Position numbers and translations under genes: made by a program
In this document: positions 19,942 through 21,945 of the stretch, piece by piece
How the letters are laid out: every line of letters starts with the position of its first letter
Numbering within the stretch: position 1 is the first letter of the stretch
The notes under the pieces: model-generated
Database searches by the model: none
Seen by the model: the letters and a program-made list of their open reading frames with translations, nothing else
What the model was told of the DNA's origin: nothing
Virus genome (UHGV): UHGV-1336742
DNA from: a virus
Direction: 5' to 3' (one strand)
Length of the DNA: 23,584 nt

Positions 19942-21945
19942 GTGTTATGGGTGGATTCTCTGTATCCGGAGCTTAAGTTGCACGCCATTGGGTGGGTTAA
20001 GCATAAATGTATTCCTGGTGCTAAATGGCCCGAAATTCAGGCAGAGATGCGCATCTGGAAAAAACGTCGCGAAGGTGAACGCAAGGAAACCGGAAAATAC
20101 ACGTCTGTTGTTGATCTCGCCCGCGCCAGAGCCAATCAACAGTACACTGAAAATTCAACAGGAAAAATCAGCCCGGTCATTGCTGCCATTCATCGCGAAT
20201 ACAAGCAGACATGGAAAACACTGGATGACGAACTGGCCTACGCTCTCTGGCCTGGTGATGTGGATGCCGGAAACATTGACGGCAGCATCCATCGCTGGGC
20301 AAAAAAAGAAGTTATCGACAACGACCGCGAAGACTGGAAGCGTATCTCGGCATCAATGCGCAAACAGCCTGATGCCCTTCGCTACGACCGCCAGACTATT
20401 TTTGGCCTTGTCCGTGAGCGTCCGATCGACATTCACAAAGATCCCGTAGCACTGAACAAATATATCTGCGAATACCTGACGACAAAGGGCGTGTTTGAGA
20501 ATGAAGAAACAGACCTGGGCACTGTTGATGTTCTCCAGTCATCAGAAACACAAACTGATGCAGTGGAAACTGAGGTATCTGATATCCAAAAAAATGAAAC
20601 CGCGCCGGAAGCTGAACCATCTGTAGAGCGTGAGGGGCCGTTCTATTTCCTCTTCGCAGATAAGGACGGAGAAAAATACGGTCGCGCAAACAAACTTTCT
20701 GGTCTGGATAAGGCACTGGCTGCTGGCGCCACTGAAATCACAAAAGAAGAATATTTTGCCCGAAAAAATGGCACATACACGGGCTTACCGCAAAATGTAG
20801 ATACCGCTGAAGATTCAGAACAACCAGAGCCGATAAAAGTTACCGCTGACGAAGTAAACAAAATTATGCAGGCAGCCAATATCAGCCAGCCTGACGCCGA
20901 TAAGTTGCTTGCTGCATCACGTGGTGAATTTGTTGAAGGGATTAGTGACCCGAATGATCCGAAATGGGTTAAGGGGATCCAGACCCGCGATTCTGTGAAC
21001 CAGAACCAGCATGAATCGGAACGGAACTACCAAAAAGCGGAACAAAACAGTCCAAATGCGTTACAAAACGAGCCAGAAACGAAACAGCTTGAACCAGTGG
21101 CGCAACAGGAAGTGGAAAAAGCCTGCACCGCCTGCGGTCAGACCGGCGGCGGCAACTGCCCTGATTGTGGCGCGGTGATGGGCGACGCAACATACCAAGA
21201 AACATTCGATGAAGAGTATCAGGTTGAAGTTCAGGAAGATGATCCGGAGGAAATGGAAGGCGCTGAACATCCACACAAGGAGAACACTGGCGGCAATCAG
21301 CATCACAATAGCGATAATGAAACTGGCGAGACGGCAGATCACCCAATTAAGGTGAACGGTCATCGCGAAATCACATCCACCAGCAGGACGTGTGACCATC
21401 TAATGATCGACCTTGAAACCATGGGAAAAAATCCTGATGCCCCGATCATCTCAATAGGTGCAATATTTTTCGATCCGCAAACCGGAGATATGGGACCAGA
21501 ATTTAGTAAGACTATCGATCTGGAAACTGCTGGCGGAGTCATTGATCGGGACACCATTAAATGGTGGCTTAAGCAATCACGCGAAGCGCAATCTGCCATT
21601 ATGACCGATGAAATCCCGTTAGATGATGCACTGTTACAATTGCGGGAATTTATCGACGAAAACTCCGGTGAATTTTTTGTTCAGGTTTGGGGAAATGGAG
21701 CCAACTTCGACAACACGATTTTGCGCCGTTCATACGAACGGCAGGGGATCCCCTGCCCGTGGCGTTACTACAACGATCGCGATGTACGCACAATCGTTGA
21801 GCTGGGGAAAGCCATAGACTTCGATGCCAGAACGGCTATTCCATTCGAAGGTGAGCGCCATAATGCACTTGATGACGCCCGTTACCAGGCAAAATACGTT
21901 TCAGTTATCTGGCAAAAACTGATCCCGAGTCAGGCTGATTCTTAA
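19942..21945 (+). CDS. 667-aa protein with C-terminal DEDDh (DnaQ-like) 3'-5' exonuclease domain, acidic low-complexity linker and CxxC...CxxC zinc ribbon
   Basis: Exo motifs HLMIDLETMG, VWGNGANFDNTILRR and HNALDDARYQAKY; zinc ribbon CTACGQTGGGNCPDCG; linker rich in E/D/Q/T. Frame opens after TAA at 19909-19911; first start is GTG at 19942, first in-frame ATG about 35 codons later. Confidence 0.8.
   Translation: MLWVDSLYPELKLHAIGWVKHKCIPGAKWPEIQAEMRIWKKRREGERKETGKYTSVVDLARARANQQYTENSTGKISPVIAAIHREYKQTWKTLDDELAYALWPGDVDAGNIDGSIHRWAKKEVIDNDREDWKRISASMRKQPDALRYDRQTIFGLVRERPIDIHKDPVALNKYICEYLTTKGVFENEETDLGTVDVLQSSETQTDAVETEVSDIQKNETAPEAEPSVEREGPFYFLFADKDGEKYGRANKLSGLDKALAAGATEITKEEYFARKNGTYTGLPQNVDTAEDSEQPEPIKVTADEVNKIMQAANISQPDADKLLAASRGEFVEGISDPNDPKWVKGIQTRDSVNQNQHESERNYQKAEQNSPNALQNEPETKQLEPVAQQEVEKACTACGQTGGGNCPDCGAVMGDATYQETFDEEYQVEVQEDDPEEMEGAEHPHKENTGGNQHHNSDNETGETADHPIKVNGHREITSTSRTCDHLMIDLETMGKNPDAPIISIGAIFFDPQTGDMGPEFSKTIDLETAGGVIDRDTIKWWLKQSREAQSAIMTDEIPLDDALLQLREFIDENSGEFFVQVWGNGANFDNTILRRSYERQGIPCPWRYYNDRDVRTIVELGKAIDFDARTAIPFEGERHNALDDARYQAKYVSVIWQKLIPSQADS

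What the first reader, a model, noticed from the sequence alone, without database searches (positions are those of the whole stretch)
19942..21945. Large multi-domain DEDDh exonuclease fusion with acidic linker and zinc ribbon in the position of the lambdoid recombination genes
The C-terminal 200 aa carry all three DnaQ-like exonuclease motifs with the DEDDh histidine, preceded by a long acidic low-complexity linker containing a CxxC-x9-CxxC zinc ribbon, and a conserved-looking N-terminal domain of about 190 aa. It sits between the immunity/dicF region and xis-int, where lambda carries exo/bet and Rac carries recET, so it may be an alternative recombination or anti-defence nuclease. The only start upstream of the first in-frame ATG is a GTG without obvious Shine-Dalgarno. 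In K-12 this region is fragmented (ydfD/ydfE, IS insertion), so this may be the intact ancestral form.
Basis: partly seen in the sequence, partly recalled or inferred. Interest (0 to 1): 0.45.

Follow-up and report, generated by a model that had tools for sequence, protein, structure and literature searches.

The report
Truncated copy of prophage YdfE exonuclease
The 667-codon reading frame is real, but it is the decapitated remnant of a very common 823-residue prophage exonuclease gene whose front end, together with two toxic neighbouring genes, was removed by a 1 kb deletion, so it is an ordinary decaying prophage gene and not an intact ancestral form.

Summary
The ORF at 19942-21945 exists and ends in a genuine DEDDh 3'-5' exonuclease domain (Pfam Rv2179c-like, E=2e-67; all five catalytic residues invariant; closest solved fold T4 DexA). 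It is not an intact gene. Compared with E. coli MEI003 and with the complete phage HannyBb, the window lacks 1,035 bp. That segment holds dicB, ydfD and the first 163 codons of an 823-aa 'exonuclease'. The junction is an 8-bp microhomology (TGTATCCG, 19961-19968). The GTG 'start' and the first seven codons are spacer DNA downstream of dicF. The breakpoint falls inside a confidently folded N-terminal domain (Pfam YdfE_N). K-12 ydfE is residues 1-256 of the same protein, so K-12 and this window hold opposite fragments. The missing 5' end is present in 3,869 of 5,426 complete E. coli genomes. The exact junction occurs in one, where RefSeq calls it a pseudogene. N-terminal modules and nuclease heads are shuffled among relatives. 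In the loci examined, RecT follows the PD-(D/E)XK head and is absent beside the DEDDh head. Verdict: known family, pseudogene allele, low interest.

The parts
19821..19872 (+). DicF small RNA, retained immediately upstream of the deletion
   Evidence: Rfam RF00039, 72.2 bits against a gathering score of 48, E=2e-14
19942..19960 (+). Non-native 5' extension of the ORF. The GTG and following codons are read from the spacer downstream of dicF, which is non-coding in intact relatives.
   Evidence: Window 18024-19968 is collinear with L001 2525-4469 and HannyBb L007 3508-5452, upstream of dicB. No SD motif is present.
19961..19968 (.). Deletion junction: 8-bp microhomology TGTATCCG, present at both ends of the 1,035-bp segment that the window lacks (dicB, ydfD, exonuclease codons 1-163)
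   Evidence: Base-by-base comparison with L001. Same result against phage HannyBb. A contiguous junction is found in only 1 of 5,426 complete genomes.
19961..21945 (+). 5'-truncated remnant of the 823-aa YdfE-family exonuclease gene (codons 164-823 plus stop)
   Evidence: ORF aa 4-667 match intact aa 160-823 at 98.9%. PHROG 2082 profile positions 160-822 of 823 are matched. RefSeq annotates the same allele in strain 52F4 as a pseudogene 'missing N-terminus'.
19963..20088 (+). Stump of the N-terminal domain (YdfE_N; intact residues 164-205 of a 1-205 domain)
   Evidence: AlphaFold2 model: residues 1-205 form one high-confidence domain (pLDDT above 90), and the breakpoint lies inside it. Truncated relatives lack PF27430 in the precomputed Pfam annotation. 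PF27430 is named YdfE_N.
20206..20508 (+). Helical domain B (intact residues 245-345)
20257..21354 (+). Region homologous to the non-catalytic centre of Rac RecE (intact residues 262-627, RecE 278-592)
   Evidence: BLASTP E=3e-62. NCBIfam PRK09709 E=2e-83, profile positions 271-600.
20626..20778 (+). Small beta/alpha domain C (intact residues 385-435)
   Evidence: AlphaFold2, pLDDT 94-96
21124..21168 (+). CxxC-x7-CxxC zinc-ribbon motif, shared with RecE
   Evidence: Regular-expression match. Aligned to RecE ACNACGQTGGDNCPDC.
21172..21381 (+). Acidic, His-rich disordered linker
   Evidence: 27% D+E, 4% K+R, 9% H. pLDDT below 50. Near-identical to RecE 531-592.
21397..21912 (+). DEDDh 3'-5' exonuclease head (Rv2179c/DexA-like); catalytic residues D490, E492, D590, H640, D645
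   Evidence: Pfam PF16473 E=1.8e-67. Invariant catalytic columns. Foldseek top hit T4 DexA 8KEL, E=3.6e-9.
22018..22269 (+). Excisionase
   Evidence: Collinear with the annotated excisionase in L001 and L007
22289..23584 (+). Integrase
   Evidence: Collinear with the annotated integrase in L001 and L007

Best explanation
The ORF is a 5'-truncated, most likely non-functional remnant of a widespread lambdoid-prophage gene (Pfam YdfE_N/YdfE_C family, 823 aa; PGAP name 'exonuclease' or '3'-5' exonuclease'). A 1,035-bp microhomology-mediated deletion removed dicB, ydfD, the gene's own ribosome-binding site and start, and its first 163 codons. This fused the rest in frame to spacer DNA downstream of dicF. 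Shown: the deletion, the junction, the truncation inside a folded domain, and the rarity of the allele. Inferred: the deletion was tolerated or favoured because it removes two toxic genes (the DicB division inhibitor and the YdfD lysis protein), with the exonuclease as collateral damage. For the intact protein my best reading, held at roughly 40% confidence, is this. It is an early-left-operon DNA-end exonuclease in which a RecE-type non-catalytic scaffold (N-terminal domain, helical domain, Zn ribbon, acidic linker) carries a DexA-like 3'-5' DEDDh head in place of RecE's 5'-3' PD-(D/E)XK head. It works without a dedicated annealase, so it more likely trims or degrades 3' DNA ends during lytic growth than drives RecET-type single-strand annealing.
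For: Deletion and junction: against two independent references (a chromosome and a complete phage). Intact form is 823 aa. 61 of 67 evaluable viral-contig loci are intact. The missing 5' 487 bp is present in 3,869 of 5,426 genomes, while the exact junction is in 1 of 5,426 and is annotated there as a pseudogene. The breakpoint lies inside a pLDDT>90 domain that is conserved in 30-45%-identical relatives. No SD motif precedes the GTG and no promoter-like site lies between dicF and the ORF. At least two other independent deletions remove dicB, ydfD and the 5' end with different breakpoints. Toxicity of DicB and YdfD: PMC10448788, PMC8835842. Head identity. RecE homology. Module shuffling: K-12 RecE = PF06630 + PDDEXK; P0123 and others = PF06630 + DEDDh; P0141 = YdfE_N + YdfE_C + PDDEXK. 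RecT follows the PDDEXK-headed P0141 and K-12 recE. RecT is absent next to DEDDh-headed genes in L001, L007, L008 and L012 and in 80 of 80 viral loci. A complete phage carrying the intact gene has no annotated annealase.
Against: The reading frame is still open for 660 native codons and the catalytic head is undamaged, so loss of function is inferred, not shown. An in-frame TTG at codon 13 is preceded by GGAG, and an ATG at codon 36 by AGG. Standalone heads of ~190 aa are viable proteins elsewhere (LLS gp34; EcD, PMC12153337), so a shortened product could be active if translated. Only 4 nucleotide changes are specific to the window copy (3 nonsynonymous, 1 synonymous), too few to demonstrate relaxed selection. 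The proposed function of the intact protein rests on homology and gene context only. The substrate (DNA or RNA) is not settled, because the Pfam family is named after an exoribonuclease. The RecT survey used only RecT queries, so other annealase families could have been missed in the 80 loci.
Confidence: 0.85

Rival explanations
1. The truncated ORF is still expressed, by read-through from the dicA-controlled operon past dicF with initiation at an internal start. It would supply a working DexA-like exonuclease, for example as a domesticated nuclease comparable to the standalone EcD defence protein.
For: Open frame with an intact catalytic head. Candidate internal starts at TTG codon 13 (GGAG upstream) and ATG codon 36. 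No terminator-like site on the + strand between dicF and the ORF. Standalone homologues exist and one is reported active against T4 (PMC12153337). LLS gp34 is 57% identical to the head.
Against: The native start and RBS are deleted. The product would carry a broken N-terminal domain. The allele is found in 1 of 5,426 complete genomes, so it has not spread. The operon is DicA-repressed, and in K-12 no transcript extending into ydfE was detected (PMC10448788). DexA's proposed 5hmC-reading residues are not conserved: W152 is Y and D169 is A.
Confidence: 0.12
2. The window's 667-codon form is the ancestral intact gene, and the 823-aa form arose by insertion.
For: None beyond the uninterrupted reading frame.
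Against: The 'extra' 1,035 bp holds the conserved genes dicB and ydfD plus a conserved folded domain with distant homologues. It is present in 71% of genomes and in viable phages. There is an 8-bp microhomology at the junction. K-12 ydfE contains exactly the part missing here.
Confidence: 0.01
3. The intact family is a true recombination exonuclease, functionally equivalent to RecE or lambda Exo (the alternative recombination gene the first reader suggested).
For: It shares the scaffold with RecE and the same operon position as recET. PMC12315714 reports DnaQ-like nucleases inside some lambdoid Rec modules, such as epsilon34.
Against: The polarity is opposite (3'-5') and no annealase partner was found in any DEDDh-headed locus examined. 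PMC12315714 explicitly does not count int-proximal DnaQ-type genes as Rec-module members, and notes that 3'-5' exonucleases usually inhibit recombination.
Confidence: 0.15
4. The intact family acts on RNA, or on nucleotide second messengers, and not on DNA (an exoribonuclease or anti-defence role).
For: The Pfam family is named for the M. tuberculosis 3'-5' exoribonuclease Rv2179c. Structural neighbours include RNase T, oligoribonuclease and CBASS Cap18.
Against: The closest relative by sequence and by structure is the DNA exonuclease T4 DexA. The fusion partner is a DNA-recombination scaffold. No anti-defence or defence family match was found beyond a generic DEDDh hit.
Confidence: 0.1

Closest known systems
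YdfE-family prophage exonuclease (Pfam YdfE_N PF27430 + YdfE_C PF27432 + PF16473; PHROG 2082; e.g. WP_021520755.1 and Escherichia phage HannyBb XNS40216.1)
   Same: 98.9% identical over residues 160-823. Same neighbours downstream (xis, int) and upstream (dicF).
   Different: The window copy lacks residues 1-163, its start and RBS, and the upstream genes dicB and ydfD. It is a pseudogene allele of this family.
E. coli K-12 ydfE (b1577, Qin prophage pseudogene)
   Same: Same gene and same chromosomal region, next to rspB.
   Different: K-12 keeps residues 1-256, then runs into IS2E. The window keeps residues 164-823. They are complementary fragments overlapping by about 93 residues.
RecE (exonuclease VIII) of the Rac prophage
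   Same: Homologous central region (RecE 278-592), including the Zn ribbon and acidic linker. Same operon position between kil-type genes and xis-int.
   Different: RecE has a PF06630 N-terminal domain and a PD-(D/E)XK 5'-3' head and is followed by recT. This family has a YdfE_N domain, a DEDDh 3'-5' head and no recT.
T4 DexA (exonuclease A; PDB 8KEL)
   Same: Closest solved structure and sequence relative of the head, with the same DEDDh catalytic set.
   Different: DexA is a standalone 227-aa protein with extra loops. Its proposed 5hmC-reading residues W152 and D169 are Y and A here. Identity is only 26%.
Standalone lambdoid 'DnaQ-like exonuclease' next to int (phage LLS gp34) and E. coli EcD (HREX defence, PMC12153337)
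   Same: LLS gp34 is 57% identical to the head and occupies the same slot, the last early-left gene before xis-int. EcD begins MIDTET, compared with MIDLET here.
   Different: Those are ~190-aa single-domain proteins. This family adds a ~640-aa RecE-like scaffold.

Membership tests
DEDDh (DnaQ-like) 3'-5' exonuclease, Pfam PF16473 Rv2179c-like | Score above the Pfam gathering threshold over the full domain | tested here: met
   226.9 bits against a cut-off of 27; profile positions 2-177 of 177
DEDDh (DnaQ-like) 3'-5' exonuclease, Pfam PF16473 Rv2179c-like | Exo I D-x-E, Exo II D, Exo III H-x4-D catalytic residues | tested here: met
   D490, E492, D590, H640 and D645 are invariant in alignment A1
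DEDDh (DnaQ-like) 3'-5' exonuclease, Pfam PF16473 Rv2179c-like | RNase H-like DnaQ fold | tested here: met
   Foldseek hits to DexA, RNase T, Orn and Cap18, TM (target) 0.65-0.73. The model is of the 92%-identical intact protein P0001.
DEDDh (DnaQ-like) 3'-5' exonuclease, Pfam PF16473 Rv2179c-like | 3'-5' exonuclease activity | not testable with these tools
   Needs a biochemical assay
YdfE-family prophage exonuclease (full-length architecture) | YdfE_N domain (PF27430) present | tested here: not met
   The window retains only residues 164-205 of the 1-205 domain. Relatives truncated at nearly the same residue lack PF27430 in the precomputed Pfam annotation.
YdfE-family prophage exonuclease (full-length architecture) | YdfE_C (PF27432) plus a C-terminal nuclease head | tested here: met
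   Relatives 92% identical, whether full-length or truncated, carry PF27432 and PF16473. The local Pfam copy lacks PF27432, so this rests on proxies.
YdfE-family prophage exonuclease (full-length architecture) | Native start and length of about 823 aa | tested here: not met
   667 codons, of which the first 7 are non-native
RecE / exodeoxyribonuclease VIII | NCBIfam PRK09709 equivalog cut-off | tested here: not met
   281 bits against a cut-off of 1269; only profile positions 271-600 matched
RecE / exodeoxyribonuclease VIII | PF06630 N-terminal domain | tested here: not met
   Absent from the intact protein; present in K-12 RecE
RecE / exodeoxyribonuclease VIII | PD-(D/E)XK nuclease head (PF12684) | tested here: not met
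   Replaced by PF16473; RecE has PF12684 at residues 615-850
RecE / exodeoxyribonuclease VIII | Adjacent annealase gene (recT) | tested here: not met
   xis follows directly. 0 of 80 related loci have RecT within 5 kb.
RecE / exodeoxyribonuclease VIII | Central non-catalytic region with Zn ribbon and acidic linker | tested here: met
   BLASTP E=3e-62, near-identical over about 150 residues
HREX / EcD-type 5hmC-specific defence exonuclease (PMC12153337) | Conserved Trp and acidic residue equivalent to DexA W152 and D169 | tested here: not met
   Y610 and A624 at the aligned columns; the D169 column lies in a poorly aligned loop
HREX / EcD-type 5hmC-specific defence exonuclease (PMC12153337) | Loss of the DexA D90 tetramer contact | tested here: inconclusive
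   The aligned residue is D, with A one position later; the local alignment is ambiguous
HREX / EcD-type 5hmC-specific defence exonuclease (PMC12153337) | Selective degradation of 5hmC DNA and protection from T4 | not testable with these tools
   Needs an assay

The most novel reading that the evidence does not exclude
This concerns the intact relatives, not the window's dead copy. The RecE-type scaffold may be a polarity-independent delivery platform. The same non-catalytic body carries either a 5'-3' PD-(D/E)XK head, with RecT downstream in the loci seen, or a 3'-5' DEDDh head, never with RecT in the loci seen. The DEDDh version, present in about 70% of E. coli genomes and in viable phages that lack any annealase, could be the DNA-end-processing factor of Rec-module-less lambdoid phages that depend on host RecBCD. 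That would give the long-unexplained N-terminal ~600 residues of RecE a testable function independent of RecT.
Probability: 0.15. Interest if true: 0.55.

Novelty: already known. Interest (0 to 1): 0.15.

Why it matters
For the window itself it matters little. It corrects an annotation trap: a long open frame that looks like a novel intact fusion is in fact a pseudogene. It also adds one more case of cryptic-prophage decay in which the toxic genes dicB and ydfD are lost while the DicF sRNA is kept. The side result has more value. RecE's enigmatic non-catalytic region is shared with a far more common DEDDh-headed protein, and in the loci examined head type tracks with the presence or absence of RecT. 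That points to concrete head-swap and knockout experiments relevant to recombineering and to the biology of lambdoid phages that lack Rec modules.

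Full report
OBSERVATION. Its C-terminal ~170 residues match Pfam PF16473 (Rv2179c-like 3'-5' exoribonuclease domain) over the whole profile at E=1.8e-67. In an alignment with T4 DexA and six standalone homologues, the five DEDDh residues (D490, E492, D590, H640, D645 in ORF numbering) are invariant. A four-cysteine motif is present at aa 395-409, but it reads CTAC-GQTGGGN-CPDC, so the spacing is x7 and not x9. 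The tract at aa 411-480 is 27% Asp+Glu, 4% Lys+Arg and 9% His, and it is predicted disordered. DicF RNA lies at 19821-19872 (Rfam), and xis and int follow at 22018 and 22289. The descriptive part of the finding is therefore largely correct.

THE ORF IS TRUNCATED. The PHROG 'exonuclease' profile 2082 is 823 positions long, and the ORF matches only positions 160-822. The best E. coli matches to 19500-22300 came as two pieces spanning about 1 kb more than the query. In E. coli MEI003 the region reads dicB, ydfD, an 823-aa 'exonuclease', xis, int, rspB. BLASTN shows window 18024-19968 = L001 2525-4469 and window 19961-23584 = L001 5505-9128. So the window lacks 1,035 bp containing dicB, ydfD and the first 163 codons of the exonuclease gene. 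The 8 bp TGTATCCG are present at both ends of the missing segment and once at the junction (19961-19968). The same result holds against the complete phage HannyBb, which carries the intact gene at 99.8% identity.

The GTG at 19942 and the first seven codons (MLWVDSL) are spacer DNA downstream of dicF that happens to be in frame. This explains the missing Shine-Dalgarno.

An AlphaFold2 model of the intact protein (mean pLDDT 76) resolves the following parts:
- Domain A, residues 1-205, high confidence.
- Helical domain B, residues 245-345.
- Small domain C, residues 385-435.
- Weakly ordered helices and the Zn ribbon.
- A disordered linker, residues 567-636.
- The exonuclease domain, residues 640-820.

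HOW COMMON EACH FORM IS. The missing 5' 487 bp occurs in 3,869 of 5,426 complete E. coli genomes, with up to 6 copies per genome. One 90%-identity cluster of the 823-aa protein holds 23,183 sequences. Of 80 related viral-contig loci, 61 are intact at about 823 aa, 13 are cut by contig ends and 6 are disrupted. The exact junction is contiguous in only one complete genome (strain 52F4), where RefSeq annotates '3'-5' exonuclease; incomplete; missing N-terminus'. The flanks of that allele differ from the window at about 48 positions, so common descent versus recurrence at the same microhomology is unresolved.

At least two other strains have different deletions that also remove dicB, ydfD and the 5' end of the gene while keeping dicF. 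Relative to L001, PI24 lacks 4466-5205 and GDSC2227PM lacks 4491-5506. All three left breakpoints fall within 25 bp around an inverted repeat, GACGTTAA-N11-TTAACGTC. DicB and YdfD are toxic when expressed (PMC10448788, PMC8835842). I infer, but have not shown, that selection against them drives these losses and that the exonuclease is collateral.

K-12. ydfE (b1577) is 100% identical to residues 1-256 of the intact protein and then reads into IS2E. K-12 and this window therefore hold opposite fragments of one gene, and neither is the intact form. ydfD is a separate gene.

WHAT THE INTACT PROTEIN IS. The head's closest solved relative, by sequence (phmmer E=1.5e-6) and by structure (Foldseek E=3.6e-9), is T4 DexA, a 3'-5' DNA exonuclease. 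RNase T, Cap18 and oligoribonucleases follow.

The body is related to RecE. The NCBIfam exodeoxyribonuclease VIII model matches residues 246-623 (profile 271-600) at E=2e-83. BLASTP against K-12 RecE aligns 262-627 with RecE 278-592, and the match is nearly identical from 'DKLLAASRGEFV' through the Zn ribbon and the acidic tract. The homology stops where RecE's nuclease domain begins: PF12684 lies at 615-850, and the review PMC11611040 gives the nuclease domain as 564-866 and the N-terminal part as of unknown function.

Relatives show a 2x2 shuffle of modules:
- K-12 RecE: PF06630 N-terminal domain plus a PD-(D/E)XK head.
- P0123, P0126, P0133, P0136: PF06630 plus a DEDDh head.
- P0141: YdfE_N plus YdfE_C plus a PD-(D/E)XK head.
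- This family: YdfE_N plus YdfE_C plus a DEDDh head.

RecT immediately follows the PD-(D/E)XK-headed genes, namely K-12 recE and P0141. No RecT accompanies the DEDDh-headed genes in the Qin-type, 813R8, Rac-like or HannyBb contexts, or in any of the 80 viral loci. This is a small sample on the PD-(D/E)XK side, and only RecT was searched for.

LITERATURE. Pfam already names the domains YdfE_N and YdfE_C. PMC12315714 (Genome Res 2025) reports DnaQ-type nuclease genes in lambdoid early-left operons, 'usually encoded very near int', and does not count them as recombination-module members. Its phage LLS carries a standalone 190-aa 'DnaQ-like exonuclease' directly before xis-int, and that protein is 57% identical to this head. 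PMC12153337 (NAR 2025) reports that a standalone E. coli DexA homologue, EcD, degrades 5hmC DNA and protects against T4. EcD is a different gene (primers), and the residues proposed to read 5hmC are not conserved here, so I do not transfer that function. I found no functional study of the 823-aa protein.

MECHANISM. For the window copy: a pseudogene remnant that has lost its start, its RBS and three quarters of its first domain. It lies in a DicA-repressed operon for which no transcript reaching ydfE was detected in K-12 (PMC10448788). A residual product from an internal start (TTG at 19978 with GGAG upstream; ATG at 20047) cannot be excluded, and I put that at about 12%. For the intact family, by inference at about 40%: a RecE-type scaffold delivers a DexA-like 3'-5' DNA exonuclease to DNA ends early in lytic growth, without an annealase. 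End trimming or degradation is therefore more likely than RecET-type strand annealing.

VERDICT. The nuclease identity and the recET analogy hold. 'Intact ancestral form' does not. The family is catalogued and the allele type is already flagged as a pseudogene in RefSeq, so novelty is 'already known' and interest is low (0.15). The head-swap pattern in intact relatives is the only part worth following up.

Noticed in passing
window 15900-17537 (-): A 545-aa ORF with a dCMP/cytidine deaminase domain (aa 276-448). It has a very strong PADLOC match to the dCTP-deaminase anti-phage defence protein (PDLC02373, E=8e-169). It sits where K-12 Qin carries relBE/ydfV/flxA..
   Followed up: partly
window 19961-19968; L001 4465-4495, L003 ~3565, L004 ~3590: At least three independent deletions in different E. 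coli strains remove dicB, ydfD and the 5' end of the exonuclease while keeping dicF. All left breakpoints fall within 25 bp of an 8-bp-stem inverted repeat (GACGTTAA-N11-TTAACGTC). This suggests a deletion hotspot, selection against the toxic genes, or both..
   Followed up: partly
relatives P0123, P0126, P0133, P0136, P0141; L011 768-4354; L012 5001-7418: A 2x2 module shuffle: two alternative N-terminal modules (PF06630 RecE-N or YdfE_N) combine with two alternative nuclease heads (PD-(D/E)XK or DEDDh). RecT follows the PD-(D/E)XK-headed genes only..
   Followed up: partly
L014 (phage LLS PQ299149) 6760-7332 (-): A standalone 190-aa DnaQ-like exonuclease, 57% identical to the head domain, in the same slot (last early-left gene before xis-int) of a phage shown experimentally to grow better with RecBCD..
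   Followed up: partly
window ~435-4438, next to 4600-5592 (-): A second integrase-bearing element abuts a truncated terminase large-subunit gene. Its genes are a 412-aa tyrosine recombinase at 3200-4438, an HTH regulator, and BRO-N, Icd-like, DUF4222 and primase genes. It resembles the 'helper-embedded satellites' that target prophage late genes (bioRxiv 10.1101/2022.07.18.500453). This is inferred from the annotation of the near-identical locus L010.
   Followed up: no
window 18943-19560 (+): A 205-aa ORF between the DUF1391 gene and dicF with no Pfam match. It contains a CPICG...C motif and is conserved in phage HannyBb (L007 4427-5044). It replaces the ydfB/ydfC region of K-12..
   Followed up: no
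window, whole: Chi (GCTGGTGG) occurs 5 times on each strand, against about 0.36 expected per strand by length. One bottom-strand site at 21377 lies inside the ORF. HannyBb has 5 top-strand and 2 bottom-strand sites. This may relate to the Chi-rich, Rec-module-less lambdoid class of PMC12315714..
   Followed up: partly
window 8590-8975 (-), 11486-11878 (-), 15173-15347 (-): Two cspA-type thermoregulator leaders (for the cspI- and cspB-like genes) and a Sok antisense RNA of the hokD locus, all typical of Qin-like prophages..
   Followed up: no
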